Notes under the pieces: generated by a model
Databases searched by the model: none
What the model saw: only the letters and a program-made list of their open reading frames with translations
Told to the model about the DNA's origin: nothing
Position numbers and translations under genes: made by a program
Shown: positions 60-30,591 of the stretch, one piece after another
Layout of the letters: every line of letters begins with the position of its first letter
Position numbering within the stretch: the first letter of the stretch is position 1
Virus record (IMG/VR): IMGVR_UViG_3300032753_000092
Coordinates: 1-36,575 of that record
Source: a virus
Taxonomy: Duplodnaviria; Caudoviricetes
Strand: one strand, 5' to 3'
DNA: 36,575 bases

Positions 60-274
60 GCTCAATAATTAAATTTCTTCAAACAGAAGATAATAAAGAG
101 GGTATTGCTTCTATCGTGCCTTGTACTGTTGAGTTTACAATAAGCGGAGCCGCTACTACTGGGGAGTTAGTTGAGCAGTTTACCTATTTCTTAAAGGCTA
201 TGGGTTATTATGTACCTGAAAACGCTCAGCTTGATTGGGTAAGTACAGATACCGGAGAGCCTATAGAGGATTAA
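56..274 (+). CDS. Hypothetical protein (72 aa)
   Basis: ORF with GAGGAGG upstream and ATGA coupling to the previous gene; no motif recognised. Confidence 0.7.
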   Translation: MSSIIKFLQTEDNKEGIASIVPCTVEFTISGAATTGELVEQFTYFLKAMGYYVPENAQLDWVSTDTGEPIED

Positions 275-285
275 TAAATAACTTT

Positions 286-2223: not shown

Positions 2224-2997
2224 ATGCGCATTGCTATTTCCGGGACAGCTAACCAGGGCAAGTCCACCCTAATTAAAGATTTTGTATCCAACTGGCCTAT
2301 GTATACAGTTGGTGGTAACTCTTATAGAGAGTATATTAAGAAGAATAAATCCCCACACAGTAAGAAAACAAACAAAGATACACAATGGAAGTATCTTAAC
2401 TTAATTGTTGAAGACTTACAAAGTTTTAAAAAAGACGATCATGTTATTTTTGACAGATGTGCTTTAGATAATTTGGTTTACTCGTTGTGGTGCTGTGATA
2501 AAGAGGTTGGTAGGATTGATGAGAAGTTTATCCAGAAATGTATACCAATTGTAAGAGAAAGTTATAAACATTTAGATATAGTATTTTTCTTACCTATTAC
2601 AAAGGTAGCTCCAGTACCTATAGAAGATAACGGTACAAGAGAAACTGACGAAATTTACGTTAAAGAAATTGATGCATTGTTTAAAAGTATGATGCAACAA
2701 TATCAGCATAATCTTGGAAGAAACCCTTTCTTTCCTTCAGATGATTGCCCTGGTTTTATTGAAATATTTGGTAAACCAGAAGAACGTATTCAAATGATAA
2801 AGTGGTATTTGGATGCAGAAGGTGATTTAATTGGTGGTGATGTAAACTCACCAGATAACCTTTTCAATCCAGAAAACTTAACTGAAATGGAAGAGTTAAT
2901 TAAGTCGCAAAAGCTACTTAAAGAACAAGAGACTTCAATGGCTGCTGAATTAGCAAAGATTAAAGACTTTGTTAAAGAGACTGGTGTAAAGTTTTAA
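2224..2997 (+). CDS. P-loop NMP-kinase-like protein (AAA_28/NadR-Ttd14-like)
   Basis: Walker A GTANQGKST at the N-terminus, DRCALDNLVY motif and EDNGTR lid-like motif. Confidence 0.75.
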   Translation: MRIAISGTANQGKSTLIKDFVSNWPMYTVGGNSYREYIKKNKSPHSKKTNKDTQWKYLNLIVEDLQSFKKDDHVIFDRCALDNLVYSLWCCDKEVGRIDEKFIQKCIPIVRESYKHLDIVFFLPITKVAPVPIEDNGTRETDEIYVKEIDALFKSMMQQYQHNLGRNPFFPSDDCPGFIEIFGKPEERIQMIKWYLDAEGDLIGGDVNSPDNLFNPENLTEMEELIKSQKLLKEQETSMAAELAKIKDFVKETGVKF

Positions 2998-5888: not shown

Positions 5889-6520
5889 AATTAGGTATAT
5901 GTCTAGTAGGTATAAGCCATCTCATACACGATCAAAGATGGCCTATCTCTAGATCATACCTCGATTGTAAAGAAAATTTTACAGAAGAAATACTCAAACC
6001 ACTAGCAAAGTTTGATACAAAAATATATCTTACCAGTTACCTATCACCTGAAACTGGTAATATTATAGATTTTTATAAGCCAGAAGCTTGTCAATTTCTT
6101 AACATAAAAAGCTCACATCAAATTAAAACGTTCATTAAGAGTATAGAGCAGGTAGAGGCTGAAGATTTGGATTACGTTTTATTTACCAGGTTTGACATCT
6201 ATTTTAACAAAGGTAAATTAAAGACGTTAAATTACAATTTAAACAACGTTAACTTTTTATGTCGTGAAAAAGATCATTGGGATAACATGAATTTCGTTAA
6301 TGATTGCTTTTACTTTTTACCTACAAAACACTTATTACAGTTTAAAAAGGCGTGTGTAGCACTGTTAAGCAACCCACCAAGACCTGGGCTTATGGATATG
6401 CACGGGCTATATAAAATATTAACCAATTACCTTTCCACAGATAATATTTCTTTCATGACGGAAGAACATCATTTAAGTAGTAAAAATTCTATATACGAAC
6501 TCAAGAGAAGAACACGTTGA
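5885..6520 (+). CDS. Putative glycosyltransferase/sugar-modifying protein
   Basis: MKLGICLVG start, DYVLFTRFD and NDCFY motifs; position within the GT cluster. Confidence 0.5.
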   Translation: MKLGICLVGISHLIHDQRWPISRSYLDCKENFTEEILKPLAKFDTKIYLTSYLSPETGNIIDFYKPEACQFLNIKSSHQIKTFIKSIEQVEAEDLDYVLFTRFDIYFNKGKLKTLNYNLNNVNFLCREKDHWDNMNFVNDCFYFLPTKHLLQFKKACVALLSNPPRPGLMDMHGLYKILTNYLSTDNISFMTEEHHLSSKNSIYELKRRTR

Positions 6521-6544
6521 TTATATAAATCTATATATTATAAT
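6517..6544 (+). promoter_or_regulatory. Sigma70-type promoter
   Basis: TTGATT, 16 nt, TATAAT; ATG 6551 is 6 nt downstream. Confidence 0.55.
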
Positions 6545-6550
6545 TGACAA

Positions 6551-7192
6551 ATGGTTGTTTTAATATTATCCAATACAGCTAATCCTGAGTACTACATGAT
6601 GTTGGAAGAGTGTATAAACTCTTTACAGGGATTTGAAGCTGTTGTCGTAGAAACTAACACTAAGCTAAAAGATAAAAACATACCTTTAGCTTCTAAAGCC
6701 AAGTTTATATTTCCAAATGAACCTTTTAACTACAATAGATTTCTTAATTTAGGTATTGAACAAATTAAGAGTGATAAAATTTTAATATCTAATAATGATG
6801 TCGTTTATCATAATGACAGTTTAATTAACTTGAGTTTAGCTCTTGACACGTTTGATTCAGTAAGCCCTAAAGATCTTAATAATCCTAAACACCAGTACTT
6901 CTTCCAAGACCCTATTGAAGGTTATGATATTGGGGTGCATGTAACAGGTTGTTGTATTGGTTTGACACGCAAGACTTTAGATACGATTGGTAAGTTTGAT
7001 GAGACGTTTAAGTTTTGGTACCAAGATAATGACTATGCTAATTTACTTAAAAAGCATAACTTAAAGCATGCATTAGTACCTGAAGCAATGGTTACACATA
7101 AAGGTTTTAGTAGTCATAAATTACTTGGTGATAAATTAACTGATATGACTCACGGATTGGAAAGCACTTACAAGGAGAAGTGGTTTGAATGA
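6551..7192 (+). CDS. Glycosyltransferase, GT2 family
   Basis: FNYNRFLNLG, ISNNDV, GKFDETFKFWYQDND. Confidence 0.85.
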   Translation: MVVLILSNTANPEYYMMLEECINSLQGFEAVVVETNTKLKDKNIPLASKAKFIFPNEPFNYNRFLNLGIEQIKSDKILISNNDVVYHNDSLINLSLALDTFDSVSPKDLNNPKHQYFFQDPIEGYDIGVHVTGCCIGLTRKTLDTIGKFDETFKFWYQDNDYANLLKKHNLKHALVPEAMVTHKGFSSHKLLGDKLTDMTHGLESTYKEKWFE

Positions 7193-7917
7193 AAATAGCA
7201 CTACTTTGTCCTACAAGAAATAGAAGAAACAAACTTCTTACACTTATTGCAAGTTTAATAACTACCGTTAAGACTGACGGGGTGTATTTGGTATTAGGAG
7301 TTGATGAAGATGATCCAATTAAAAAATATTATGATTACCTTCAGCATAATGTACCTTTTATTAGAGTAATTACTTTTAAAAATAATGGTAAGTTTTTAGG
7401 ATTGTCTACCATGTGGAATGAAATGGTAAAACAAACACAAGATGTAAACATTTATGCAATGATAGGTGATGATATGACGTTTTTAACTCAAGACTGGGAT
7501 GTAGAAATAAAGAAAGAGTTTGAAAACGGCCCTAAAGACAATGTTTTAATGGTCCATTGTAATGATGGTATGAGAGGACCAGGTAACAAGTATGAAAATG
7601 TTAAACCGTTTTGTGTTAACTTCTTTGTACATAAAAAGTGCGTAGACGCATTAGGTTACTTTGTTGAACCTTACATTGAAAATATTCATCAAGACACATG
7701 GTGTCAAGTTGTTTATGATTCAGTAGGTAGGACAAAATATAGACATGACATTTTAATTAAACATTTACATGTTAGTGAAACGAAAGATAAAGTAGATCCA
7801 ATCACAGATAACTTAGAGAAGTTAAGAGTTGGTATTTGGGATAATAATAATTGGATGACAACATATAGAAAAGAACTTGAAGGAGATGTAGCTAAGCTAC
7901 AGAAATTAATTAAATGA
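7189..7917 (+). CDS. Glycosyltransferase, GT2-like (GT-A fold)
   Basis: LLCPTRNR, GVDEDD, MIGDDM, HCNDG, late HLH motif. Confidence 0.75.
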   Translation: MKIALLCPTRNRRNKLLTLIASLITTVKTDGVYLVLGVDEDDPIKKYYDYLQHNVPFIRVITFKNNGKFLGLSTMWNEMVKQTQDVNIYAMIGDDMTFLTQDWDVEIKKEFENGPKDNVLMVHCNDGMRGPGNKYENVKPFCVNFFVHKKCVDALGYFVEPYIENIHQDTWCQVVYDSVGRTKYRHDILIKHLHVSETKDKVDPITDNLEKLRVGIWDNNNWMTTYRKELEGDVAKLQKLIK

Positions 7918-8609
7918 AAAAGATAGGAATAATACAACCAGGTAGATTAGGTGATTTGTTTATATGTCTACCAATAGCTAAATACTACAGCAAGAAAGGC
8001 TATAAAGTTTATTGGCCAGTGATGGTAGATTATGTTAACTTAGCGCATTTCATTGCAGATTATGCAATTTTTATACCAGTAACAAGTGATGTTTACAAGT
8101 GTGTTGATGAAGCTAGAGATGCATTAAAGTATCACAAAGTAGATAAAGTTATAGATATAGCTGCAACCTTTCCTGGTAGTACATGCACAGAAGAGTATGT
8201 TAAATTGGGAGATGGTTTTGGTGAAGAAAAGTTTGATGAATTCAAATACAGATTAGCTAAAGTACCTTTTAAAAATAAATGGAATCTTCAATATACTAGA
8301 GATTTAGATAGAGAACAAGAAGTGTATGACTTATATGTAAAAGAGAAGAAGTATGATGTGGTTGGTTTAAAACATTCAAGAGGTGAAGCTAATGTACAAG
8401 TACTAAGTAAGAATCAAGTAATTCACATAAATGAAAAACACCGTATAGTGGATTGGCGTAAAGTGTTAGAGGGTGCTGAGCACATTGTACTTGTAGATAG
8501 TGCAATGGCTAATTTTGTAGAACAGTTAAACTTACCTAATAAGAAAACGTTAGTTACAAAGCCTGGTCAACCAACACCGACATTTAAAAATAAATGGGAT
8601 ATAAGATGA
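7914..8609 (+). CDS. GT-B glycosyltransferase, GT9 (heptosyltransferase)-like
   Basis: QPGRLGDLFICLP at the N-terminus and LEGAEHIVLVDSAMAN near the C-terminus. Confidence 0.6.
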   Translation: MKKIGIIQPGRLGDLFICLPIAKYYSKKGYKVYWPVMVDYVNLAHFIADYAIFIPVTSDVYKCVDEARDALKYHKVDKVIDIAATFPGSTCTEEYVKLGDGFGEEKFDEFKYRLAKVPFKNKWNLQYTRDLDREQEVYDLYVKEKKYDVVGLKHSRGEANVQVLSKNQVIHINEKHRIVDWRKVLEGAEHIVLVDSAMANFVEQLNLPNKKTLVTKPGQPTPTFKNKWDIR

Positions 8610-9379
8610 GAATTGGATTTACAATAATATTAAACGGTCTACATCATTTAAAGCATAATGATTATTACAAGACATTGTGTGATAATTTAGACTATTGGGT
8701 TTTAGTTGAAGGAGTATCGTTACCAACAGGATCAACATCTTGGTGTAAAGAGTTACCTGATGATATGCATAAAAACTTTTTATCTAATGATGGTACAACT
8801 GAATTTTTAGATAGCATTAAAAGTGATAAAGTAAGAGTAATTAGACCAAATAATAGAGCATGGAAAAATAAAGATGAGCAAGTTAATGCTGCTATAGCAG
8901 AAATAAAAACCATTACTGATGAATGTATGTTATGGCAAATTGACGTTGATGAGCAGTGGACATTGCAACAAATGAAAGAAGCTGAAACCCATTTAACTAA
9001 TCATAATGGGAAAACAGGTTGTTTTTATTGTAACTACTTTGTTGGTCCTAGACAAATGGCGTATGGTCAATGGGGGGAAGGTAAGCATGAACCATACAGA
9101 AGGTTATGGGATTGGAAAGGTGAAGATTTTGAAACACATGAACCACCTAAGTTAAAAGGTAAAAATGGGCCTGGGTTATTATTAACTCAGCGTTTTAATC
9201 ATTATGCTTACTATTACCCACAAGATGTTAAGTTCAAGGAAAAGTATTACGGAGGGTATGAAGGTTTATATCAAAGGTGGTTAAACGTGCAAGATAATAG
9301 AGATGTTATATCAATTAAAGAGTTGTTAGGACCAAACACCTGGTGGTCATTTACACAAACTTATATAAAATATGTATAA
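8606..9379 (+). CDS. Glycosyltransferase, GT2-like
   Basis: FTIILNG, VLVEG, SNDGT, WQIDVDE, FNHYAY; start placed at the ATGA overlap (8606). Confidence 0.7.
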   Translation: MRIGFTIILNGLHHLKHNDYYKTLCDNLDYWVLVEGVSLPTGSTSWCKELPDDMHKNFLSNDGTTEFLDSIKSDKVRVIRPNNRAWKNKDEQVNAAIAEIKTITDECMLWQIDVDEQWTLQQMKEAETHLTNHNGKTGCFYCNYFVGPRQMAYGQWGEGKHEPYRRLWDWKGEDFETHEPPKLKGKNGPGLLLTQRFNHYAYYYPQDVKFKEKYYGGYEGLYQRWLNVQDNRDVISIKELLGPNTWWSFTQTYIKYV

Positions 9380-10212
9380 TGCTTATTGAAGGAAACAATT
9401 TTATATCTCATTACCTTAAATTAGGTAAACCGTTATGCGCAGGTAAGATTGGCGTAACAGAGCTTAACTTAATGTACTGTGCTCATACAATAGAGAACGC
9501 AAATAGATTTCAACCGCAATTACAACATGAGGTTGAAGATATTGCTGGTTTATACCCTTATACAGTAGCTACTACATTAACATTCAATGATCATATTAAG
9601 CATGCACTTAAGCAAGTAGACTTAATACCACAATGGAATAAAGTTAACCCAATGTTTGAAAAGTTTGTATTTGAAGAGTATTGCCCTGAAGCAAGAATTA
9701 CTGATTTGCAACATTTAGAGCCATACTTTTTTGAAAAGCCATGGACAAATTATCTTGATGGTAAAAAAGTTTTAGTGTTTAGTCCGTTTGCAGAATCTAT
9801 TGAAAATAATTTTATTAATTTAGACAAGATATGGAACGGTCGTATAATTCCAAATTTTAGATTAAAGACAGTTAAGTATCCATTTGCATTGAAAATTTCT
9901 CCTAACCCAAAATATAAATCATCATTTGATATTTACGAAGAGTATTTAGAGATTTTACGCAATGAAGACTTTGATGTTGGTATATTCGGGACTGGGTTCA
10001 CCTCATTGCTGTTTGCAGCTGAGTGTAAACGTTTAGGAAAAACAGGTATTCATTTAGGTGGTTCAACGCAAATATTATTTGGCATCAAAGGTCAAAGATG
10101 GCTTGATATACCAGAATTTGCACCCTTCTTTAATGAGTATTGGACAACACCTTTAGAATCTGAAAAACCAGAAAAGAGACAACTTGTTGAAGGTGGATGT
10201 TATTGGGCATGA
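9379..10212 (+). CDS. Putative glycosyltransferase of polysaccharide loci (GT-D-like)
   Basis: GKIGVTE, GKKVLVFSPF, DFDVGIFGTG, IHLGGSTQILFGIKGQRW, GGCYW; start at the TAATG overlap. Confidence 0.55.
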   Translation: MLIEGNNFISHYLKLGKPLCAGKIGVTELNLMYCAHTIENANRFQPQLQHEVEDIAGLYPYTVATTLTFNDHIKHALKQVDLIPQWNKVNPMFEKFVFEEYCPEARITDLQHLEPYFFEKPWTNYLDGKKVLVFSPFAESIENNFINLDKIWNGRIIPNFRLKTVKYPFALKISPNPKYKSSFDIYEEYLEILRNEDFDVGIFGTGFTSLLFAAECKRLGKTGIHLGGSTQILFGIKGQRWLDIPEFAPFFNEYWTTPLESEKPEKRQLVEGGCYWA

Positions 10213-10979
10213 GTGTTTTTATTCAATATGATGAATGGGGTAGGATGGGTAATAGAATGTTTCAGCTTGCGTTTGGTTATATTTTAGCTAAACAAAAAGG
10301 TGTAAAATTATATCATACAGGATTACCTAACTTTGAGATAACACCAAGTGTATTAGGCGTTACACCGGTTAACGCCATATATACTAGGTCTTACGGAGAC
10401 AATTACGTTGACATGAGTGAGTTGTTAGAAACTAATAGAGACATAGTTATTAATTCATTTGTACAAAAAGCAGAATATTACACACCCTATAAGCAAGAAC
10501 TTAAAACGTTTTTCAATATCAGACCATATACGATTAATAGAGATAAATTGGTAATGCATATTAGAGAAACTGATTACCAAATGATTAACCAATTTCTAGG
10601 TTATGAAGTGTATAAACAAATTATAGAAAAATCTGGGTTTAAAACTGCAACCATAATAACAGACAATTCTGAATGCGAGACAGTTAAGAAACTACTAGCA
10701 GATGGGTGCATTTTAAATAGTGAAGGAGTTGTTAAGGAATTTAATACCGTTAGTGATGCAAGAGCAATGAATGATTTTGACACGTTATTACAAAGTGCTA
10801 ACATTGCATTATCTCAATCTTCATTCTCATGGTGGGCAGCATTCTTAGGTGAGCATGATAAAATCATATTTCCAAGTGTATGGAATAAAGGCCAGTGGAA
10901 GGCTAACCCTGGTAAAGATGATGTTAATTTATGGTTGAATGACAATAATTGCATTCGCTATAATATTGATAATAAGTAA
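10209..10979 (+). CDS. Alpha-1,2-fucosyltransferase-like, GT11
   Basis: GRMGNRMFQ, HIRETDY (HxRxxD) and SSFSWWAAFL are the GT11 signature motifs. Confidence 0.85.
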   Translation: MSVFIQYDEWGRMGNRMFQLAFGYILAKQKGVKLYHTGLPNFEITPSVLGVTPVNAIYTRSYGDNYVDMSELLETNRDIVINSFVQKAEYYTPYKQELKTFFNIRPYTINRDKLVMHIRETDYQMINQFLGYEVYKQIIEKSGFKTATIITDNSECETVKKLLADGCILNSEGVVKEFNTVSDARAMNDFDTLLQSANIALSQSSFSWWAAFLGEHDKIIFPSVWNKGQWKANPGKDDVNLWLNDNNCIRYNIDNK

Positions 10980-10999
10980 CTCTTACCTATATAAATTAT

Positions 11000-11743
11000 A
11001 TGTTTACATTCAGTGCACTAATGAATAATAGCTCTGGCTATAAAGAAAAGAACTTACCTGAAAAATGGGCAATTTTAGAAAAACTATACGAGCAAAACAT
11101 TAAACCAAAAGGTGAAGAAAAGATACCAAAAATTATTCACCAAATTTGGTTAGGTGATGCTATACCAAATGCGTTGTATGATATGATGGATACCATTAAA
11201 AAGGTTAACCCTGGTTATGATTACAAACTTTGGACAGATGTTGAAGCAGAAGAATTCATGTTTGAAAACAAACAGTTATTCAACAAGCTGAGAAATTTAG
11301 GTCAAAAGTCAGATGTATTGAGATATGCTATTTTGTTAAAGTATGGTGGCATTTATTTAGATACAGATTTTATTGGTATTAAATCTTTTGACGAACTATT
11401 GCATTTAGATTTCTTTACTGGAGTTTCTTACGATAAAGAACCAACTTTATTCAATGGGTTAATTGGTTGTGTACCTAACCATGAATTAATGGCTGATTTA
11501 AATAACATAGAAGAAGCAAGAGATGGTGATGGAATGGAAATTATTAAGACTACGGGGCCTTGGTATATGACTAAAAAGCTTTTCAGAAAGATTGACAAGC
11601 TAAATAATATTGTGGTTTTACCTGTAGCATATTTCTATCCATATCCTAATTTTGATAGAGATAGAACTAAAGGCACTGATTACAACGAGTATACAACAAT
11701 TAAAACAATTTGCGTACATCTATGGAATTCAAGCTGGAATTAA
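11000..11743 (+). CDS. Glycosyltransferase, GT32 (OCH1/DXD sugar-binding)
   Basis: IPKIIHQIWLG, SDVLRY, YGGIYLDTD, TGP, HLWNSSW. Confidence 0.88.
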   Translation: MFTFSALMNNSSGYKEKNLPEKWAILEKLYEQNIKPKGEEKIPKIIHQIWLGDAIPNALYDMMDTIKKVNPGYDYKLWTDVEAEEFMFENKQLFNKLRNLGQKSDVLRYAILLKYGGIYLDTDFIGIKSFDELLHLDFFTGVSYDKEPTLFNGLIGCVPNHELMADLNNIEEARDGDGMEIIKTTGPWYMTKKLFRKIDKLNNIVVLPVAYFYPYPNFDRDRTKGTDYNEYTTIKTICVHLWNSSWN

Positions 11744-12573
11744 AAGAAAGTGATTTTATCTCTGGTGAAAGAATCCAAGAAATAGCTCACGTAACCTATT
11801 TTGGTACAACTAACGATAACATACCAAAACAACTCTTAAACACTAAAACAGTTTTAAGAGATAGGTTTGACTTCTATGTAAAGGATAATGAGACTATTGT
11901 TTATGTTTATGGGCATGACTTGGATTTGTTTTTTAGAGAAGCATTTCCAGAAATTGATCACTCAATAAAGTTAATATCTCATAATACAGATTACCCAGTT
12001 GATAGTAAGTATATACAATACTTGGATGATGATAAAATTATTAAATGGTATGCACAAAACGCTATACTAGATCATCCAAAGTTAGTACCTGTACCTATTG
12101 GTATTGCAAATAAACAATGGCCTCATGGCAATATAGATAACTTCTTACATGTGATGAGGTTAGATAATAAAAAAGAAAACGTAGTATATAAAAACTTTGA
12201 TATTGGTACTAATATGGGAGTAAGAAGTAGAGTAAACCAAATTACTAATCAAAACAACATTTTTATGGATAGAACATATCCACATACTGAGTATTTACAA
12301 AGAGTAGCTAAAAGCTTATTTGTAATATCCCCACCAGGTAACGGTATTGATTGTCATAGAATTTGGGAAGCATTATATCTAGGTACAGTGCCAATAGTAG
12401 AGAGAAGCCCAGCTTTTAGAAACTTTACTGATCTACCTATTCTGTTTATAGATAAATGGGAGGATGTTACTTTAGATTTTGTTAAAGCTCAGATACCTTA
12501 CTTTTACGGTGGTCATAAATTTGATTTAACAAAAATAACTTTACCTTATTGGAAGGCTCTTATAAATGAATAA
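11722..12573 (+). CDS. Exostosin/GT47-like glycosyltransferase
   Basis: SHNTD, KWYAQN, PVPIG, SPPGNGIDCHRIWEALYLGTVPIV. Confidence 0.7.
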   Translation: MEFKLELKESDFISGERIQEIAHVTYFGTTNDNIPKQLLNTKTVLRDRFDFYVKDNETIVYVYGHDLDLFFREAFPEIDHSIKLISHNTDYPVDSKYIQYLDDDKIIKWYAQNAILDHPKLVPVPIGIANKQWPHGNIDNFLHVMRLDNKKENVVYKNFDIGTNMGVRSRVNQITNQNNIFMDRTYPHTEYLQRVAKSLFVISPPGNGIDCHRIWEALYLGTVPIVERSPAFRNFTDLPILFIDKWEDVTLDFVKAQIPYFYGGHKFDLTKITLPYWKALINE

Positions 12574-13414
12574 TTTTGGTATAATTTGCAACGACGATGT
12601 TAACAAAGTCGGTCATTTATTGTTTAATAACTTTAAATTAGCTTTAATAAACATCTTTAAATGTAACTTAATTGACATTGTTATACCAATTCAAATACCG
12701 CAACATAATATAAAAACATTAATAATTGTAGATGAACATTATGAACCAAATGTAAAGGTTTGGAGAAATGATGAGTTTATTAGAACTTTAAACGATAATA
12801 AAGTTAAGGTTATAGTTTTTAATTTTGAAAGAATATACAACTCAAGCTTTCCATGGAATGTAGAGCATCAAAAAATGTTAGAAAGGATTAATAACTTAAC
12901 TCAGTTTGTGAGTGATATTGATGATGCTAAATTAATGAACAAGCAAGTTATTAATAAACAGCACTTATCGGTACATACTAATTTAAATGTCATACCATTA
13001 GAAAAGAAAGAAAATAAAGTAGTCTTTATAGGTCAAGTTAATGATTATTACCCAACAAGAAAAAGAGTTATAGAACAAGTTAAAAAAATACTTGACATGG
13101 ATGTGATTGTAACAGACCGTAAATTAATGTATAAAGATTTTCTAGAGACACTTAACAAATACAAATACGTTTTTAATCCTCTAGGCACTGGTAAATTTAT
13201 TAATTTGAGATTTTACGAAGCCATCACTTTAGGTTGTATACCTATTCAAGAAATTAGAGATGATATGATTAGTTGGTATCCTGAGTTAATGCACAGTGTT
13301 AATTTTACATCTGTAGATAAAATAGATTTTGATAAAACTATAGTAAAATATGATAACAGATATAAACTAGAAGATTATTTAAAAGATATTAAAATAGAGA
13401 CATACTTTGAATGA
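12566..13414 (+). CDS. GT-B glycosyltransferase (CgeB/Glyco_trans_1_2-like C-terminus)
   Basis: VVFIGQ....YPTR and NPLG....NLRFYEAITLGCIPI. Confidence 0.65.
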   Translation: MNNFGIICNDDVNKVGHLLFNNFKLALINIFKCNLIDIVIPIQIPQHNIKTLIIVDEHYEPNVKVWRNDEFIRTLNDNKVKVIVFNFERIYNSSFPWNVEHQKMLERINNLTQFVSDIDDAKLMNKQVINKQHLSVHTNLNVIPLEKKENKVVFIGQVNDYYPTRKRVIEQVKKILDMDVIVTDRKLMYKDFLETLNKYKYVFNPLGTGKFINLRFYEAITLGCIPIQEIRDDMISWYPELMHSVNFTSVDKIDFDKTIVKYDNRYKLEDYLKDIKIETYFE

Positions 13415-14781
13415 TTAAAGTTATTATATTTGATTTAGATGGTGTATTAGTTAGCTCAAAAGAGCTACACTATGAAGCACTTAACAGGGCTCTTTTTAAT
13501 GTAGACTCAGATTTGCCTATATCTTTTGAAGAGCATATCGGTAAATATGATGGTTTAAGTACGCGTAAAAAGTTAGAAAAACTAACAAAAGATAAAGGGT
13601 TATCAGAAAAGTATCACGATAAGGTTTGGGAAGATAAGCAAATAGAAACTTTAAGATTAATTAAAAAATTTAAACCTGATTTAAGAATTCAATCCATTCT
13701 TAAATCTTTAGCTCCTAATTATAGGCTTGCATGCTGTACAAATTCAATAAGAGAGACAGCAAAGTTGCAATTAGAGAAGAAAGGCTTTGTAGGTTATTTT
13801 ACCAAATTGTATACCAATGAGGATGTAAAACAAACAAAACCAAACGCAGAAATATATATGCGTTGTATGTTAGACCTTGAAGTTAACCCAGACGAGGTTA
13901 TAATAGTAGAAGACTCATTTATTGGTAGAAGAGCAGCACAAAGATCTGGTGCACATGTTTTACCAGTAAACACTCCAGAAGACTTAACACTTAAATTAAT
14001 ACAAGACTTTATTATGAAATTAGAAAACAAAACCCCAAACCATAAATGGAAATCAGATAAACTTAATATTTTGATTCCAATGGCAGGTGCAGGGTCTAGG
14101 TTTGAGAAAGCCGGTTACACATTCCCAAAACCTTTAATTGATGTTAAAGGTAAACCTATGATTCAAGTTGTAGTAGAAAATCTAAACATGGACGCTAACT
14201 ACCACTTTATTGTACAAGAATCTCATTTACAAAAGTATAATTTAGATCAAATGTTAAAACTTATTACACCTAAAAGCACTTGCATTGCTATTAACGGTAT
14301 GACAGAGGGAGCTGCATGTACAACTTTAAAAGCAGAACAATATATTAATAATGACAATCCTCTTATTATTGCTAATTCAGATCAGTTTGTAGAATGGCAA
14401 AGTGATGAGTTTATGTATAACATGATTACAAGTAATGTTGATGCTGGTATATTAACTTTTAAAGCTACACACCCTAAATGGAGTTTTGCTAAAGTAGATG
14501 ATAATGGGTTTGTTACTGAAGTAGCTGAAAAGAAACCTATTAGTGATATTGCTACTGTAGGTATATACTATTGGAAAAAGGGTAGTGATTACGTAAAGTA
14601 CGCAAAACAAATGATTGAAAAGAATATAAGAGTCAATAATGAGTTTTATGTATGCCCTGTATTCAATGAAGCAATACAAGATAGCAAAAAGGTAAAGGTG
14701 TTCAACATTGATAAAATGTGGGGCATTGGTACTCCGGAAGATTTAACCGTATTTTTAAACAATGCTAATTATATCCCATAG
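13411..14781 (+). CDS. HAD phosphatase fused to a sugar-phosphate nucleotidyltransferase
   Basis: FDLDGVL, TNS, KP and VEDS..G (HAD motifs I-IV), then IPMAGAGSRF...PKPLI, TEGAACT, ANSDQ, EKKPIS, GIGTPEDL. Confidence 0.88.
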   Translation: MIKVIIFDLDGVLVSSKELHYEALNRALFNVDSDLPISFEEHIGKYDGLSTRKKLEKLTKDKGLSEKYHDKVWEDKQIETLRLIKKFKPDLRIQSILKSLAPNYRLACCTNSIRETAKLQLEKKGFVGYFTKLYTNEDVKQTKPNAEIYMRCMLDLEVNPDEVIIVEDSFIGRRAAQRSGAHVLPVNTPEDLTLKLIQDFIMKLENKTPNHKWKSDKLNILIPMAGAGSRFEKAGYTFPKPLIDVKGKPMIQVVVENLNMDANYHFIVQESHLQKYNLDQMLKLITPKSTCIAINGMTEGAACTTLKAEQYINNDNPLIIANSDQFVEWQSDEFMYNMITSNVDAGILTFKATHPKWSFAKVDDNGFVTEVAEKKPISDIATVGIYYWKKGSDYVKYAKQMIEKNIRVNNEFYVCPVFNEAIQDSKKVKVFNIDKMWGIGTPEDLTVFLNNANYIP

Positions 14782-15196: not shown

Positions 15197-15787
15197 ATGA
15201 TTATTAACGATATTCCTGTATACGACGGCTTATTAATTCATAAACGTTTTGCTTATAACTATTTCAGAAAGAAAACCTTACCTATTGGTAACATTGTAGC
15301 ATTTAGAGCTCCAATGAATGTCCAAGCAGAGGGTATGATTGATAGTGAAGATGTATTGCAAAACGATTATATCTATAGTGATGATGCAATTAACTTCTGT
15401 TGGGAAATACCTAACTTAGATCCATTTGGTGCAGTTGCATATCAAAGACTTTTTAATACGCAAATTGCTATGATTTTATCAAATCGTTATCTTAAGAAGC
15501 CAATTGAGGTAGATGGTGATGATTTTATGGTACATGACCAGTTTGAAGGTAGTGATGGTGCATTGCAAAAGGTAGGTAAGTGCAGTGTAAGTATCACGTA
15601 CTCAAAAGATAATGTAGCAATTGGCCATACCGGTATTAATGTTAATGCAGGACGTAAAGCACCAGCATTTGCATATAGTACCAAATTAACTGATGAACAA
15701 GCAACTCAATTTATGAAAGATGTTATTGATTTGTTTTATGCATTAAATGATGACCTCTTTATAGCTACGACAAAAGTTATTACTTGA
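15197..15787 (+). CDS. DUF366-like protein (biotin/lipoate-ligase-like fold)
   Basis: YDG, IVAFR.P, MIDSEDV, I.SDD, QRLF, DGDD, K.SVSI and HTGINV match my recollection of the DUF366 pattern. Confidence 0.65.
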   Translation: MIINDIPVYDGLLIHKRFAYNYFRKKTLPIGNIVAFRAPMNVQAEGMIDSEDVLQNDYIYSDDAINFCWEIPNLDPFGAVAYQRLFNTQIAMILSNRYLKKPIEVDGDDFMVHDQFEGSDGALQKVGKCSVSITYSKDNVAIGHTGINVNAGRKAPAFAYSTKLTDEQATQFMKDVIDLFYALNDDLFIATTKVIT

Positions 15788-20028: not shown

Positions 20029-20637
20029 TTATTTATTATTAACATTAACGTTTATTATAAATCTTGCTCCAACAGTTGGAGATGTGCTGGTATGATACCT
20101 ATTACCGTTAAAGATTAAAACTCTACCTTTTTTAGGCTTAACTCTGGCTAACTCTTTAAAGCCAAGTTTAGCAGGGTCTATATCTAAACCTTTAAATGGT
20201 ACTTCTTCTGTTGTTTTATCAAACAATACCGTATCACCATCAGCATCATTTACATAGTATAGAAACACTGAGTGGGGTTCATCCAAATCTATATGTACAC
20301 AATCATACTGTTTAATAAACTTTTTATCTAATGGTAATAAACAAAATCCTCTAGCTTGTAATACCTCATTATATTGTATGTTAGCTTTCTTAGCAATTTC
20401 TTCTATTAAAGGTACAACAACATCGGTATATACATCTTCTTTAACGTTTGTAAAATTATTGTAAAGAGGTAAACTAAATCCCATAGTACTATCATGCCTT
20501 ACATCTTCCCTTCTAACTGAACAGACGTTAACACGAAAAGCCCAAGAATTTTGTTTAGTTATAGTTTCTTCAAGTAAGTCTTGAAAATTCTTCTTAACAA
20601 CGTCATCAATGATGAGATATTCTTTACCGTCAAACAT
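20029..20637 (-). CDS. 2OG-Fe(II) oxygenase-like protein
   Basis: HID (HxD), YYVNDADGDT, FNGNRYH and distal R (RFIINVN). Confidence 0.75.
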   Translation of the reverse strand: MFDGKEYLIIDDVVKKNFQDLLEETITKQNSWAFRVNVCSVRREDVRHDSTMGFSLPLYNNFTNVKEDVYTDVVVPLIEEIAKKANIQYNEVLQARGFCLLPLDKKFIKQYDCVHIDLDEPHSVFLYYVNDADGDTVLFDKTTEEVPFKGLDIDPAKLGFKELARVKPKKGRVLIFNGNRYHTSTSPTVGARFIINVNVNNK

Positions 20638-21485: not shown

Positions 21486-21991
21486 TTGATATTGAAACAG
21501 TTAATAAACCAATTGATTATTCTGCTTATAATTTTGTAAGCAGTTTAAAAGAGTATCCTATTTTATTTTTAGGTTTCGTAATTAAAAACCAATATGATAA
21601 CCTGAGAGTTAATATTGAAGAAAATTATAAGCCTATTAATTTGCTACATTTTAGCAAAGATAGGCAATCTGTTACCGCTCTCAAAGGTATTAAACTAATA
21701 CCAAATAATAATGTAAAAAAGCTTTATAATGCAATAAAAGTACAAGAGCAACTAGCAATGAATTTAGTTATATACGAAAATCTATTAAATCAGTATGGTT
21801 TTGCTTGTAAAGAGACTTACGGGCTTTTTGCTCCAGGTATGTATCCAATAGACTTTACTAATTTAAAATCTATTTGCGATAACGATTTTAATGGAGATAA
21901 AAAAATATTTCAACATCTTTTAGGGTTAGATGAAAAGGTTTTTGACTTTCAAAAATTTTCTTCCTTAAAGTTATTCATACTAACAGTATGA
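21482..21991 (+). CDS. Hypothetical protein
   Basis: 169-aa ORF coupled to the previous gene. Confidence 0.65.
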   Translation: MIDIETVNKPIDYSAYNFVSSLKEYPILFLGFVIKNQYDNLRVNIEENYKPINLLHFSKDRQSVTALKGIKLIPNNNVKKLYNAIKVQEQLAMNLVIYENLLNQYGFACKETYGLFAPGMYPIDFTNLKSICDNDFNGDKKIFQHLLGLDEKVFDFQKFSSLKLFILTV

Positions 21992-22020
21992 ACCCCGAAC
22001 CAACAATAAATAATATACCT

Positions 22021-22992
22021 ATGATTTTTAATGAACAGATTTCACGCAAACCGAATCGCTATCCATGGACGGAAGATTTTATAGAATCCATGCATAACGG
22101 TTTCTGGACTGACAAGGAGTTCAGTTTTAAATCAGACGTGCAGCAATTCAAAGTTAATTTAACAGACCAAGAAAGGGAAATTATTATTCGCACCCTCTCT
22201 GCTATTGGTCAAATAGAAGTAGCTGTAAAAACTTTCTGGGCAAAGTTAGGAGAAAATTTACCTCACCCATCGTTACAAGATTTAGGCTACGTTATGGCTA
22301 ACACAGAAGTTATTCATAACAATGCATATGAAAGATTGATTACAGTTTTAGGACTAGAAGACGTATTTGAAGAAAATTTAAAACTAGAATGGATTGAAGG
22401 ACGCGTAAAGTATCTCAAAAAGTACACGCACCGTTTTTATAAAGATCATAAAAAGCAATACCTATACGCTATTATTCTTTTTACCTTATTTGTAGAGAAC
22501 GTTTCTCTGATGAGCCAGTTTTATATCATTAACTGGTTTGCACGTAATAAAAACGTACTCAAAGATACTGACCAGCAAGTAAAATATACACGCAATGAAG
22601 AAAATATTCATGGCTTGGTTGGTATGAAAATTATCAATACTATTAGAGAAGAATATCCTGAGCTCTTTGATGATGAACTCATGGAAAAGATACTTGGTGA
22701 AGCAAAAGAGGCTTACGAATGTGAAGCCAAAATTGTTGACTGGATGGTTAATGGTATTAACGCAGACGGGCTAACTGCTGCACATCTTAAAGAGTTCATT
22801 AAAGATAGAATAAATGAATCTCTCAAAGGTATTAATTTCCCCACTGTATTTGAAACAGACCAAAAGTTACTTAAGGATACTGCGTGGTTTAATGAAGAGC
22901 TGTTAGGTAATAACATGACTGACTTCTTTCATTCACGTCCTGTCGAGTATTCAAAGAAATCTCAAAGTTTCTCTGAAGACGACCTGTTTTAA
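22021..22992 (+). CDS. nrdB: Ribonucleotide reductase class I beta subunit (class Id-like)
   Basis: FWTDKEF, QIEVAVKTFW, EVIHNNAY, ENVSLMSQF, EENIH, DFFHSRPVEY; start at 22021 preferred (TAAATA 8 nt upstream), 21988 is possible. Confidence 0.92.
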   Translation: MIFNEQISRKPNRYPWTEDFIESMHNGFWTDKEFSFKSDVQQFKVNLTDQEREIIIRTLSAIGQIEVAVKTFWAKLGENLPHPSLQDLGYVMANTEVIHNNAYERLITVLGLEDVFEENLKLEWIEGRVKYLKKYTHRFYKDHKKQYLYAIILFTLFVENVSLMSQFYIINWFARNKNVLKDTDQQVKYTRNEENIHGLVGMKIINTIREEYPELFDDELMEKILGEAKEAYECEAKIVDWMVNGINADGLTAAHLKEFIKDRINESLKGINFPTVFETDQKLLKDTAWFNEELLGNNMTDFFHSRPVEYSKKSQSFSEDDLF

Positions 22993-23018
22993 TCTAAACC
23001 TTATACTATAATACAACT

Positions 23019-24671
23019 ATGTCAAACAAAGATATCTATTGGCTAAATAATGACTCACGTAAATTTCTTGCAAGAGGTTACCTATTAGAAAACGAAACCG
23101 CAGAACAACGTATTAGAGATATTGCTGAAAAAGCAGAATACTATCTCAACTTACCTGGTTTTGCAGATAAGTTTGAAGGTTACATGCATAAAGGGTTCTA
23201 CTCTTTGGCATCACCAATTTGGGCTAATTTTGGACGTAAACGTGGTTTACCTATTTCTTGTTTTGGTTCTTATGTGGATGATGATATGGATGCTATTCTT
23301 TATAAAATAGCTGAAGTAGGTGCAATGTCCAAATCAGGTGGTGGTACATCTGGTTACTTTGGTGCTATTAGACCCCGTGGTACTCCAATTGGTTCAGGTG
23401 GTGAGTCAACCGGTGTGCATCATCAATTGACAGTATTTGAATCCTTAACAGATTATATTTCACAGGGTAATGTACGTAGAGGTTCTTTTGCAGCTTACTT
23501 ACCAATTGATCATAAAGACATTGAAGAGTTTCTAAACATTAGAAAAGACGGTGATGCAATTCAAAACCTTTCAATTGGTGTTTGTGTTACTGATAAATGG
23601 TTTAAACAAATGGTTGACGGTGATAAAGAAAAGAGACGTATTTGGGGTTTAGTAATTAAGAAGCGTTTTGAAACTGGTTACCCATATATCTTTTTTACTG
23701 ATAATGCAAATAGACAAGCACCAAAAGTTTATAAAGATAAAGGGTTAAAAATTAACCACAGTAATCTTTGCACTGAAATTATGCTTTCAAACGGTGTTGA
23801 TGAATCGTTTGTTTGTGATTTGTCTTCGTTAAACTTTGAAAAGTGGGATGAATGGAAAGATACCGATGCAGTAGAAACTTTAGTTTACTTTTTAGATTCT
23901 GTAATGACAGAGTTTATTAATAAGACTGAAGGTATGAAGTTCATGGACCATCCAAGAAACTTTGCTGTTAATCAGAGAGCTCTTGGTATTGGCGCATTAG
24001 GCTGGCATACTTACTTACAATCTAAAATGATTGTATTTGAGTCTATGGAAGCTAAACTTTTAAATACACAAATTTGGAAGTTTGTGCGTACTAAAGCAGA
24101 TCAAGCATCGGAGCAATTAGCTAAAGAATATGGTGAACCGCCTTTATTAAAAGGATATAATCGTCGTAATGTAACTACATTAGCAGTTGCACCTACAACA
24201 TCTAGTTCGTTTATTTTAGGCCAAGCATCACCTTCTATTGAACCTCTTAACTCTAATTACTTTACAAAGGATTTAGCTAAAGGTAAATTTACATACAGAA
24301 ATCCGTACTTAGAAAACTTATTACAAAGTAAGAACAAGAACACTGAAGCTGTTTGGAAGTCTATACTAGTAAAAGGTGGTTCAGTACAACACTTAGAGTT
24401 TTTAACGCAAATAGAAAAAGATGTGTTTAAGACTTTCGGTGAAATTAGTCAGAAAGAAATTGTAATACAAGCAGCAGCTCGTCAAAAATATATTGATCAA
24501 GGTCAATCATTAAACTTAATGATACCACCAGATACTAAGCCAAAGGATGTAAATGACTTACTTATCTTTGCTTGGGAAAATGGTATTAAGAGTTTATATT
24601 ACCAACGTTCAGCTAACCCAGCACAAGAATTAGCACGTTCTATTTTAACTTGCTATAGTTGTGAAGCTTAA
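23019..24671 (+). CDS. nrdA: Ribonucleotide reductase class I alpha subunit without ATP cone
   Basis: ISCF, GGGTS, RRG, SNLCTE, APTTSSS, KSLYYQR, C-terminal CYSCE. Confidence 0.94.
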   Translation: MSNKDIYWLNNDSRKFLARGYLLENETAEQRIRDIAEKAEYYLNLPGFADKFEGYMHKGFYSLASPIWANFGRKRGLPISCFGSYVDDDMDAILYKIAEVGAMSKSGGGTSGYFGAIRPRGTPIGSGGESTGVHHQLTVFESLTDYISQGNVRRGSFAAYLPIDHKDIEEFLNIRKDGDAIQNLSIGVCVTDKWFKQMVDGDKEKRRIWGLVIKKRFETGYPYIFFTDNANRQAPKVYKDKGLKINHSNLCTEIMLSNGVDESFVCDLSSLNFEKWDEWKDTDAVETLVYFLDSVMTEFINKTEGMKFMDHPRNFAVNQRALGIGALGWHTYLQSKMIVFESMEAKLLNTQIWKFVRTKADQASEQLAKEYGEPPLLKGYNRRNVTTLAVAPTTSSSFILGQASPSIEPLNSNYFTKDLAKGKFTYRNPYLENLLQSKNKNTEAVWKSILVKGGSVQHLEFLTQIEKDVFKTFGEISQKEIVIQAAARQKYIDQGQSLNLMIPPDTKPKDVNDLLIFAWENGIKSLYYQRSANPAQELARSILTCYSCEA

Positions 24672-28195: not shown

Positions 28196-28222
28196 TTGAT
28201 TTTATCGGAATATTGCTATAAT
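28196..28222 (+). promoter_or_regulatory. Extended -10 sigma70-type promoter for the deazaguanine cassette
   Basis: TGcTATAAT (28214-28222), TTGATT at 28196 (15-nt spacer); ATG 28230 is 7 nt downstream. Confidence 0.55.
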
Positions 28223-28229
28223 AGTGTAT

Positions 28230-29033
28230 ATGTCAAATAGAATATTAGTATCACACGAATCTCCTATATCAATGTTAGATCAATCAATAGTGTATAATGA
28301 TTACGATTACGCTTTGGTGCACCTCTTTGAAAAGTATCCAGAGTATTATGACTTTTTTAAGAAGTCATTACTAAGAGGTCGTAGTGTACTACTAGACAAT
28401 AGCATATTTGAATTGGGTAAAGCATTTGATGGTGAAAAGTACGCTAACTATATTAAGGAATTAAAACCAAGTTACTATATTGTACCTGATGTACTTGAAG
28501 ATGGTTATGCAACGGTTAAAAGCTTTGCAGACTTTACTACAAAATTTACTGACTTACCGGGCCTTAAAATTGGTGCGGTACAAGGTAAAACATATGATGA
28601 GTTAGTAGATGTATACAAGTATATGAGTGAATATGCTGACTACATTGCAATTAGTTTTGACTTTTCATATTATCTTGTAACCGGTAGAGGTAAAACTAAG
28701 TTAGAAAGATTTGCATCAGGTAGACAGAACTTTATTCAGGACTTAATTAATGATGGTGTTTGGAATTGGAATAAGCCTCATCACCTATTAGGTTGTTCGT
28801 TAGCTAAAGAGTTTAGCTACTATCCTAATAATAACATTTATAACATTAGAAGTGTTGATACATCCAATCCAGTAGTTGCTGGGTTACAAGGTTTAACTTA
28901 TAATGGTGATCTTGGTTTACAAGAAAAGCCAACAGTTAAGTTAGCAGATCTTATTGATACTGAAGTAAATGCAGATCAATTAAGGGATATTTCATATAAT
29001 GTAGTTCAATTCAAAAATATACTAAAACGATGA
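28230..29033 (+). CDS. TGT/DpdA-fold guanine transglycosylase-like protein
   Basis: LLDNSIFE, IVPDV, GAVQG, HHLLG and SVDTSNP align by eye with TGT DSGG, D, GIVQG, LxG and catalytic D motifs; no C-terminal Zn site; two genes upstream of queF. Confidence 0.7.
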   Translation: MSNRILVSHESPISMLDQSIVYNDYDYALVHLFEKYPEYYDFFKKSLLRGRSVLLDNSIFELGKAFDGEKYANYIKELKPSYYIVPDVLEDGYATVKSFADFTTKFTDLPGLKIGAVQGKTYDELVDVYKYMSEYADYIAISFDFSYYLVTGRGKTKLERFASGRQNFIQDLINDGVWNWNKPHHLLGCSLAKEFSYYPNNNIYNIRSVDTSNPVVAGLQGLTYNGDLGLQEKPTVKLADLIDTEVNADQLRDISYNVVQFKNILKR

Positions 29034-29581
29034 TTATTGCTTTTACAGGTGCACAAAGTTCGGGAAAAAGTACTCTTCTTTCTAAAATGCGGGAAGATAA
29101 GTACTTTAAGGATTGGAATTTTGAAGCTGAAATAACTAGACAGCTGAAAGAGAAGTACAAGTTATCTATTAATGAAGACGGGGATAACTTTACTCAGATG
29201 ATTACTATTCATAGTCATATTGATAAATATCTTAAGAATAAAGATGCTAACTGTGTGTTAGATAGATGTTGTTTAGATGCATTAGTTTATACAACATATC
29301 TTTCATATATGAAAAAGTGTGATGAAGAGTTGGGGTATTATTCTGAGTATATTTGTAAGAAACTTATCGGTAAGTATGATATTATCTTTTATACTGATCC
29401 ATCTATTCCGTTGGTTGATGACGGGGTTAGAAGTGTTGATGTAGATTTTAGAAATAAAGTAATACAATTATTTGATTTTTATATTGAGCATTTCAATCCT
29501 AAAAACGTTGTTAAGTTAGCAGGTACAGTAGAACAGAGATATAAAATTATTAAAAAAGAGATTGAAAAGATAAAAAAATAA
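29030..29581 (+). CDS. P-loop NMP-kinase-like protein (AAA_28-like)
   Basis: GAQSSGKST, DRCCLDALVY, DDGVRS, GTVEQR. Confidence 0.78.
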   Translation: MIIAFTGAQSSGKSTLLSKMREDKYFKDWNFEAEITRQLKEKYKLSINEDGDNFTQMITIHSHIDKYLKNKDANCVLDRCCLDALVYTTYLSYMKKCDEELGYYSEYICKKLIGKYDIIFYTDPSIPLVDDGVRSVDVDFRNKVIQLFDFYIEHFNPKNVVKLAGTVEQRYKIIKKEIEKIKK

Positions 29582-29589
29582 CATATAAT
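29562..29589 (+). promoter_or_regulatory. Sigma70-type promoter upstream of queF
   Basis: TTGAAA, 16 nt, TATAAT; ATG 29596 is 6 nt downstream. Confidence 0.5.
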
Positions 29590-29595
29590 TAAATT

Positions 29596-30549
29596 ATGAG
29601 CAATCAAGTATTAGACAATTCAAATATTAACGTACATTTAGGTAAAACATCGCAGTATAAAAATACATACGATAAAACATTGCTTGTTAAGGAGCCAAGA
29701 CAAAATAATCGCACTTACTTAGGTATTCAAAATGAGAGTTTACCTTTCGTTGGGTTTGATACTTGGAATGCTTATGAATGTTCATTCTTACTTAGTAACG
29801 GTTGCCCAGTAACTGGTGTTACTAAGATTTGTTACCCAGCCGATAGTAAGTATATTGTTGAGAGTAAATCTATTAAGCTATACTTTAATAGCTTTAATAT
29901 GGAGAAGATGGGTGGTAATATTAGAGATGCAATTCTTAAGTTTAAGAATACTGCAAGTGCTGATCTATCTGACTTACTTGGTACTCATGCAAGGGTTAGT
30001 TTCTTACCAGGTCATTTAGTAGATAAGACTGAAGTAAGTGCTCATGATTTTTATGATAAAGAGCTCTTTAAGACTGTAGAGAATGAGATACCTGAAGAAG
30101 AGTTAATGAAGATTCAGTTCAATACATATACTGAAACACCTGAACTATTACAACAGGATATGAGTCTTAATACTAGTGAGTTTGACTATACTGAGCAATA
30201 CTATCATTCAGGTTTATTAAAGAGTAATTGCCGTGTTACAAGTCAACCAGATTGGGGTGATATTTACATCTATATGAAATCTAACTCTATTGTAGATAAG
30301 GTTTCATTGTTAAAGTATATCGTATCATTTAGAGATGAATGTCACTTCCATGAAGAGATTTGTGAATGTGTGTATAAACGTTTGCATGATATCTTTAAAC
30401 CTACAGAATTATTTGTAATGTGTTTATATGCACGTCGTGGTGGTATAGATATCAATCCCGTAAGAGCATCTAGTCAAGAACTAATGTTCAAACTAAGTAA
30501 GAACTTATACGATATCTACGGACCGCACGTGAAGACATCCAAACAATAA
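29596..30549 (+). CDS. queF: NADPH-dependent 7-cyano-7-deazaguanine (preQ0) reductase, bimodular type
   Basis: LGK...Y...LL, G.D.WNAYE.S, IVESKSIKLYFNSF (QueF motif), LKSNC.VTSQPDW, FHEE.CE, YARRGGIDINP.R. Confidence 0.93.
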   Translation: MSNQVLDNSNINVHLGKTSQYKNTYDKTLLVKEPRQNNRTYLGIQNESLPFVGFDTWNAYECSFLLSNGCPVTGVTKICYPADSKYIVESKSIKLYFNSFNMEKMGGNIRDAILKFKNTASADLSDLLGTHARVSFLPGHLVDKTEVSAHDFYDKELFKTVENEIPEEELMKIQFNTYTETPELLQQDMSLNTSEFDYTEQYYHSGLLKSNCRVTSQPDWGDIYIYMKSNSIVDKVSLLKYIVSFRDECHFHEEICECVYKRLHDIFKPTELFVMCLYARRGGIDINPVRASSQELMFKLSKNLYDIYGPHVKTSKQ

Positions 30550-30555
30550 GACAAT

Positions 30556-30591
30556 AAGAAACCCGATATCTTTCGATATCGGGCTCTTTTT
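30556..30591. terminator. Bidirectional intrinsic terminator between convergent queF and gp23
   Basis: Perfect stem CCCGATATC (30562-30570)/GATATCGGG (30575-30583), GAAA loop on the minus strand, T-rich tails on both strands. Confidence 0.85.

What the first reader, a model, noticed from the sequence alone, without database searches (positions are those of the whole stretch)
28230..30549. TGT-fold + NMP-kinase-like + QueF cassette: candidate nucleotide-level preQ1 substitution of phage DNA
Seen: three co-oriented adjacent genes, the first two ATGA-coupled, with their own promoter and a terminator: a compact TGT-like barrel with no Zn site, a P-loop protein with the kinase-type DR motif, and a complete QueF. 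Known: QueF reduces preQ0 to preQ1, and phage DpdA-family transglycosylases put 7-deazaguanines into DNA as anti-restriction marks. Inference: a kinase placed between the two suggests base exchange on a free nucleotide (dGMP to dpreQ1-MP) followed by phosphorylation and polymerase incorporation, instead of post-replicative editing. folE, queD, queE and queC are absent from this window, so preQ0 comes from elsewhere in the genome or from the host.
Basis: partly seen in the sequence, partly recalled or inferred. Interest (0 to 1): 0.85.

Follow-up and report, generated by a model that had tools for sequence, protein, structure and literature searches.

The report
Phage DpdA3-kinase-QueF guanine-replacement cassette
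An uncultured T4-like phage carries three genes of a known system that likely replaces the guanine in its DNA with a modified base; the small kinase that travels with the base-swapping enzyme suggests the swap is made on free nucleotides rather than on finished DNA as published, and close relatives suggest the final base would be an acetylated form not yet measured.

Summary
The three genes are real. Gene 1 is a DpdA3 transglycosylase: 47.7% identical to the DpdA3 of phage immuto 2-6A, TGT fold. Gene 2 is a NadR/dNK/TMPK-fold kinase; gene 3 is QueF. DpdA3 phages that have been measured replace all their guanine, and the published model is post-replicative.

- kinase within 4 kb in 76 of 84 distinct DpdA3 loci;
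- a small P-loop gene beside DpdA3 in 8 of 9 cultured phages (four kinase types), against 0 of 8 DpdA1 phages.
No activity is shown.

The window is a fragment; syntenic kin carry folE/queD/queE just past its left end. This lineage lacks the formyltransferase DpdN. Its kin carry a GNAT behind the queC-linked amidotransferase, often followed by a DUF5664 dNTP pyrophosphatase. GNAT and DpdN never co-occurred in 56 contigs, but that reflects only about two evolutionary events. Predicted base: N-acetyl-preQ1.

The scan has noted both readings before on other DNA.

The parts
28214..28222 (+). extended -10-like motif TGnTATAAT, 7 nt before the ATG (possible leaderless transcript)
   Evidence: not listed by the consensus scan
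28230..29033 (+). DpdA3 guanine transglycosylase (TGT-fold barrel; D56, F60, D87, Q118, D210)
29030..29581 (+). small P-loop kinase, AAA_28/phrog_2107, NadR-dNK-TMPK fold; candidate deaza-dG(MP) kinase
29562..29589 (+). sigma-70-like promoter TTGAAA-16-TATAAT in front of queF
   Evidence: (11 of 12 matches)
29596..30549 (+). two-domain QueF, preQ0 reductase
30559..30586 (.). two-way terminator-like hairpin shared with the convergent major capsid gene
2224..2997 (+). second kinase paralog (26% identical to the cassette kinase); abuts queE in some kin and dUTPase in CP220; role open

Best explanation
The window encodes a DpdA3 transglycosylase, a small nucleoside/nucleotide-type kinase and QueF side by side; these likely form the core of a pathway that replaces most or all guanine in the phage DNA with a preQ1 derivative, probably by swapping the base on free dGMP (or dG) and phosphorylating the product for the phage polymerase. 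Proposed steps: (1) phage FolE/QueD/QueE/QueC make preQ0 (genes shown in kin, inferred here). (2) QueF reduces it to preQ1 (established family function). (3) DpdA3 exchanges guanine by the TGT double displacement, with D210 as nucleophile and D56 as acid/base (residues shown; chemistry by analogy; free-nucleotide substrate inferred). (4) The kinase raises the product one phosphate level (inferred; dN vs dNMP acceptor unresolved). (5) dGTP is drawn down by DUF5664, dUTPase-like or GMP-reductase enzymes found in kin (inferred). (6) The amine is probably capped by a GNAT acetyltransferase in place of DpdN, giving N-acetyl-preQ1 (inferred from kin, about 0.5). The purpose is likely anti-restriction.
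For: Family: 47.7% to immuto DpdA3, 46.8% to CP220, 26.7% to phiST CGPG_00065. All three phages are reported as fully G-substituted (PMC10516641 passages). Kinase linkage: within 4 kb downstream in 76 of 84 distinct DpdA3 loci with enough flank, and directly followed by queF in 66 of 76. Among cultured DpdA3 phages, 8 of 9 have a small P-loop gene one to three genes away: AAA_28 (immuto, CP220, CC_R7), AAA_18 (phiST, MA9V-3), a TMK-like P-loop without a Pfam hit (BSTP12, Youna2) and the dNMP kinase family PF21448 (Ahp1). In L109 a T-fold domain (motif-level likeness to DpdL) is fused to an AAA_18 kinase directly upstream of dpdA3. Control: 0 of 8 cultured DpdA1 phages have such a gene within 3 kb, and 7 of the 8 sit within three genes of a sliding clamp. 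All strong cultured hits of the kinase (E <= 5e-12) are Campylobacter and Flavobacterium phages of the DpdA3 groups, and most of the Campylobacter records carry two copies. NTP-pyrophosphatase-type genes lie near dpdA3 in immuto (PRA-PH), phiST (MazG) and L017 (PF18909). DUF5664 follows the GNAT in 42 of 58 loci; one DUF5664 was shown to turn dATP/dGTP/dUTP into dNMP (PMC12884076). DpdA3 failed in the authors' E. coli test, and ADG nucleoside was found in the cytoplasm of CP220-infected cells. DmtZ is a precedent for base exchange on a dNMP.
Against: No enzyme activity was measured. The published model is post-replicative. The 84 loci are one T4-like group, not independent cases; 5 show no kinase in the fetched flank, nor does Rhizobium phage RHph_I1_18. 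The kinase family also occurs in 64 Streptomyces phage records without a DpdA3 hit. Complete genome G011 has no PF18909, and no MazG or HD family among the 146 of its 247 ORFs scanned. The tested DUF5664 prefers dATP tenfold. Phage P-loop kinases can act on DNA bases (5-HMUDK, PMC8989533). Charge and Zn absence do not separate DpdA3 from DpdA1. DpdA2 was not used as a control. The GNAT is not in the window.
Confidence: 0.58

Rival explanations
1. Published model: DpdA3 exchanges guanine in newly made DNA. The kinase is a general or salvage dNMP kinase that clusters with it, for example recycling modified nucleotides.
For: PMC10516641 proposes that all deazaguanine marks are post-replicative. 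The catalytic motifs align with DNA-acting DpdA1 (weak score E 0.09) and match the DpdA residues described in PMC10164549. The kinase family exists without DpdA3. G011 lacks a recognisable dGTPase in what was scanned.
Against: Four different kinase types sit beside dpdA3 and none beside dpdA1. A second kinase copy is available for housekeeping. Complete substitution would need an exchange at every G (inference). The E. coli tests failed.
Confidence: 0.27
2. Nucleoside-level variant: DpdA3 acts on deoxyguanosine, the cassette kinase makes the monophosphate, and the paralog at 2224-2997 makes the diphosphate. This is a sub-case of the best explanation; the confidence is its share of that explanation.
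For: The kinase fold is closest to the NadR ribosylnicotinamide kinase (Z 18.2 and 18.0 vs TMPK 16.3), with invariant E34-x-T-R. The paralog abuts queE in G003 and G013.
Against: Ahp1 puts a dNMP-kinase family gene in the same slot. The CP220 kinase lacks the Glu. The CP220 paralog sits by dUTPase. Foldseek ranks TMPKs first.
Confidence: 0.25
3. The final base is free preQ1 or carries another cap (for example a sugar), and the GNAT has an unrelated target.
For: The GNAT lies about 50 kb from dpdA3 in kin. The exclusion from DpdN rests on about two events in the tree. A conserved GT2-like gene follows gat in both lineages, and the window holds many glycosyltransferases.
Against: The GNAT follows the queC-linked amidotransferase in 48 of 48 loci. 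It never co-occurs with DpdN. A second, distant GNAT sits directly behind dpdA3 in L008.
Confidence: 0.45
4. The genes serve tRNA queuosine modification, not DNA.
For: TGT fold and QueF.
Against: Close homologs are in phages whose DNA lacks dG entirely. The protein is 267 aa, without the Zn site.
Confidence: 0.04

Closest known systems
[quoted passage not shown] 2023, PMC10516641)
   Same: DpdA3 48%, kinase 33%, QueF 45% identical; same order dpdA3...kinase-queF.
   Different: No dpdN in the cassette or in complete kin, which carry a GNAT instead. The paper never mentions the kinase (0 occurrences) and assumes editing of DNA.
DpdA3 of Campylobacter phage CP220 (dADG) and Cellulophaga phage phiST (dDG)
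   Same: Same transglycosylase family, with an adjacent P-loop kinase.
   Different: No queF near dpdA3 in the stretches fetched; different final bases.
DpdA1 and bacterial DpdA (phage 9g; S. Montevideo, PDB 7ui4)
   Same: TGT barrel and catalytic aspartates.
   Different: Act on DNA, with partial substitution. DpdA1 genes neighbour the sliding clamp, not a kinase.
Z-genome DmtZ-DutZ/DUF5664 route (PMC12884076)
   Same: Works like the proposed route: dNTP pyrophosphatase, base exchange on a dNMP, polymerase incorporation, full substitution; shares DUF5664.
   Different: NDT-fold enzyme acting on dAMP; not homologous to DpdA3.
DpdM/DpdN caps of preQ1, and the PaMx11 acetyltransferase of thymidine hypermodification (PMC8989533)
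   Same: Capping of an aminomethyl side chain on a phage DNA base (PaMx11 product recalled as 5-acetylaminomethyl-dU).
   Different: No acetyl-preQ1 seen in my searches.

Membership tests
DpdA3 | sequence homology to phiST CGPG_00065 and the CP220 and immuto proteins | tested here: met
   26.7%, 46.8% and 47.7% over 96-97% of length
DpdA3 | encoded with 7-deazaguanine synthesis genes | tested here: met
   queF adjacent; folE/queD/queE/queC in syntenic kin G001 and G011, not in the window itself
DpdA3 | complete replacement of genomic dG | not testable with these tools
   needs LC-MS of virion DNA
TGT/DpdA superfamily | TGT barrel fold | tested here: met
TGT/DpdA superfamily | three catalytic or base-binding aspartates | tested here: met
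   D87 and D210 invariant, D56 at least 90% conserved; aligned to the DpdA1 motifs (weak score)
canonical tRNA TGT / bacterial DpdA | structural Zn site | tested here: not met
   single Cys189; Zn site conserved in DpdA and TGT per PMC10164549
fdPreQ1 system | DpdN formyltransferase | tested here: inconclusive
   absent from the window (a fragment), from 35 of 35 direct-trio loci and from complete kin G011 and G012
QueF (two-domain) | QueF_N and QueF domains with catalytic Cys and FHEE motif | tested here: met
   below the NCBIfam equivalog cut-off
NMP kinase (TMPK/DNMK) | phosphorylates a dNMP | tested here: inconclusive
   fold lies between NadR, dNK and TMPK
5-HMUDK DNA-base kinase | match to the 5-HMUDK profile | tested here: inconclusive
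   Pfam lists only AAA_28 at E <= 0.01

The most novel reading that the evidence does not exclude
DpdA3 is a TGT-fold enzyme that exchanges bases on free deoxynucleotides, making a pre-replicative guanine analogue of the Z-genome pathway, and this phage lineage writes its genome with N-acetyl-preQ1 in place of guanine, a DNA base not yet measured.
Probability: 0.33. Interest if true: 0.88.

Novelty: new variant of a known kind. Interest (0 to 1): 0.62.

Why it matters
How phages replace all of their guanine is open. The current proposal is DNA editing, but DpdA3 has not worked in the published test. The kinase link names a missing component and a cheap in vitro test. If right, it gives a new substrate class for the TGT fold and an enzymatic route to 7-deaza-dGTP analogues, and it implies a polymerase that runs on them. 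The GNAT/DpdN swap predicts a new base in a widespread lineage (3442 DpdA3-like clusters). That would fit an arms race with host glycosylases that target deazaguanines (bioRxiv 2025.10.29.685425, passages).

Tried and rejected
- Sequence search of the PDB with the DpdA3 profile found no relative; Pfam and NCBIfam had no model.
- Net charge as a sign of a non-DNA substrate: rejected (pI 4.9-6.1 for five DpdA3 vs 5.6 for 9g DpdA1). Zn absence was rejected for the same reason.
- No queE remnant at the window's left end.
- The metagenome scan gave 15 loci, none long enough to link the window's own species to the gat-GNAT region.
- The GNAT has no match among cultured phages.
- G048 looked like a GNAT-plus-DpdN counter-example; its formyltransferase scores 33 bits on a DpdN profile (members >= 204) and lies in a sugar cluster.
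- The L008 GNAT is not significantly similar to the gat-linked GNAT.
- Crippen et al. 2019 was not available; it is cited second-hand through PMC6884629 and PMC10516641.
- A DUF1599 search gave nothing useful (listing only).
- Two DpdA1 rows (L101, L105) were dropped from alignment A4 because their matched stretch holds a stop. L105 has one Walker-A-like regex hit that was not examined.
- No complex prediction was run, since no binding is claimed.
- Supplements were not read: Data S1 of Cui et al. may list related gene sets.

Full report
Setting. The window is a 36.6 kb, 33% GC fragment of a T4-like phage: major capsid gp23, prohead protease, ribonucleotide reductase and baseplate genes. The record ends with the window. 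Complete kin measure 209-230 kb.

Observation. The three ORFs, the ATGA overlap, the DR motif, the single Cys of gene 1, the QueF motifs and the terminator are as described. The promoter scan is at chance level and lists no site before gene 1. An extended -10 motif does lie 7 nt before its ATG, an arrangement repeated at five other genes including queF.

Gene 1. It matches PHROG 19058 of unknown function. By tblastn it finds 32 of 50,697 cultured phage records, led by immuto (47.7%, annotated DNA guanine transglycosylase), the Campylobacter CP220 group (46-47%) and phiST (26.7%). These are the founding members of DpdA3 in Cui et al. (preprint: parts 2, 4 and 5 of 6 and passages; journal version PMC10516641: passages). 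The model (pLDDT 95) matches TGTs and DpdA best. D87 and D210 are invariant and D56 nearly so in 59 sequences. They align with the DSG, LD and DSS motifs of DpdA1 (weak score), which by motif correspond to Asp95, Asp130 and Asp256 of bacterial DpdA (PMC10164549 passages). Cui et al. report full G replacement in the three measured DpdA3 phages and propose a post-replicative route. They state that their DpdA3 tests in E. coli failed, and they do not use the word kinase. Hutinet 2019 (passages) notes that a modified dGTP had been proposed for Campylobacter phages, so the pre-replicative idea is not new in itself. I found no paper tying DpdA3 to a kinase (searches; listings only).

Gene 2. It is AAA_28/phrog_2107. 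Its model (pLDDT 92) is closest to the NadR ribosylnicotinamide-kinase domain by VIA (Z 18.2, rmsd 2.5, 170 aligned), then TMPK (16.3) and dGK (16.1); Foldseek ranks TMPKs first. It is a small-molecule kinase by fold, but nucleoside versus monophosphate is unresolved. A paralog lies at 2224-2997 (26%).

Linkage test, IMG/VR loci. Two scans gave 64 and 80 loci (the second kept the best 80 of 559). After removing duplicates, 109 DpdA3 sequences remained, 84 with at least 4 kb downstream. Of these, 76 have the kinase within 4 kb, 3 at 5-7 kb and 5 none in the flank. These loci are kin, so cultured phages are the stronger test.

Linkage test, cultured phages. I took nine records covering the groups. 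Eight have a small P-loop gene one to three genes from dpdA3, of four types, including the dNMP-kinase family PF21448 in Aeromonas phage Ahp1. BSTP12 and Youna2 are related, as are phiST and MA9V-3. Rhizobium phage RHph_I1_18 has none. Control: 9g plus 7 DpdA1 phages, chosen from 40 listed of 228 records, show 0 of 8. Seven of the eight sit within three genes of a sliding clamp. Among 17 IMG/VR DpdA1 loci none matches the kinase profile, and one has an unexamined regex hit. Against a strict link, 64 Streptomyces phage records carry weak kinase homologs without DpdA3.

Rest of the pathway. G001 (DpdA3 72% identical) is syntenic with the window and has queE, queD and folE immediately beyond the gene matching window 235-651, and queC about 20 kb further. 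Complete G011 (70%) has folE2, queD, queE, queC, an amidotransferase, a GMP reductase/IMPDH-family gene and a dUTPase. So preQ0 is most likely phage-made.

The cap. Most relatives have dpdA3-dpdN-(others)-kinase-queF. The window's form, with the kinase directly behind dpdA3, occurs in 35 distinct loci, none with dpdN. In kin a 156-aa GNAT follows the queC-linked amidotransferase (gat): in 20 of 72 gat loci and, conversely, in 48 of 48 GNAT loci with enough flank. DUF5664 comes next in 42 of 58. Of 41 contigs, 19 have PF00551, 4 have the GNAT, and none has both. Of the 4 complete ones, G011 and G012 have GNAT only, and G013 and G020 have DpdN only. Of 15 more GNAT contigs, 3 reach dpdA3, all in the direct form (G045 appears near-identical to G011). 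The one PF00551 hit among them is a sugar formyltransferase. On a FastTree of 114 DpdA3 the direct form falls in one clade (support 0.76) that contains a nested DpdN subclade; two members of that subclade have gat with no GNAT. So the exclusion rests on about two switches. L008 has a different GNAT directly behind dpdA3. Acetyl-preQ1 did not appear or 127 (listings and term counts). I noted this idea before looking it up; earlier scan notes state it too and are not independent support.

Mechanism. Shown: gene identities, folds, catalytic residues and neighbourhoods. From family knowledge: QueF chemistry, TGT double displacement, and full substitution in DpdA3 phages. Inferred: free-nucleotide substrate, kinase specificity, dGTP depletion and the acetyl cap. 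A natural precedent for exchange on a dNMP is DmtZ (PMC12884076 abstract and passages). The main caveats are DNA-acting P-loop kinases (PMC8989533 passages), no clear dGTPase in G011 and the published contrary model. Odds: pre-replicative about 0.6, post-replicative about 0.27; acetyl cap about 0.5.

Verdict. A member of the known DpdA3 family in a DpdN-less variant. It carries two testable predictions that go beyond print as far as my searches reached. Interest 0.62.

Noticed in passing
window 5061-14781: Run of about 12 co-oriented genes, many glycosyltransferase-like (GT11, DXD-type, GT47-like) plus a HAD/nucleotidyltransferase fusion; largely conserved in G001. May glycosylate the virion or DNA.
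   Followed up: no
window 5049, 6539, 20870, 23007, 28217, 29584: TATAAT 5-7 nt before the start codon, mostly with a TTGA box upstream: possible leaderless transcripts.
   Followed up: partly
window 2224-2997: Second kinase paralog; abuts queE in G003 and G013, and dUTPase in CP220.
   Followed up: partly
L009:12753-13142: DUF1599 (Nmad1)-like gene downstream of dpdA3 in 36 of the first 64 loci, typically between dpdN and the kinase; a GMP-reductase-like gene in 8. Possible counterpart of DUF5664.
   Followed up: partly
L367:5433-5969, L368:5231-5746, L369:1806-2363, L109:3555-4082: dUTPase/dCTP-deaminase-like genes recur near distant dpdA3 genes; candidates for a dGTP pyrophosphatase like DutZ.
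   Followed up: no
L368:3962-5230: Rhizobium phage DpdA3 fused to DUF3310.
   Followed up: no
L064:8717-13379: dpdA3 (643 aa) and queF (508 aa) both carry large insertions, intein- or endonuclease-like; an unknown 199-aa gene fills the DpdN slot.
   Followed up: no
L057:8887-9927: Radical SAM gene directly upstream of a dpdA3 that has no kinase or queF nearby.
   Followed up: no
L195:10448-15033 (G011): NAMPT, nucleoside 2-deoxyribosyltransferase-like and PRPP-synthetase genes together.
   Followed up: no
window 20029-20637, 15197-15787, 21988-24671: 2OG-Fe(II) oxygenase, DUF366 protein and a short (550 aa) class Ia ribonucleotide reductase.
   Followed up: no
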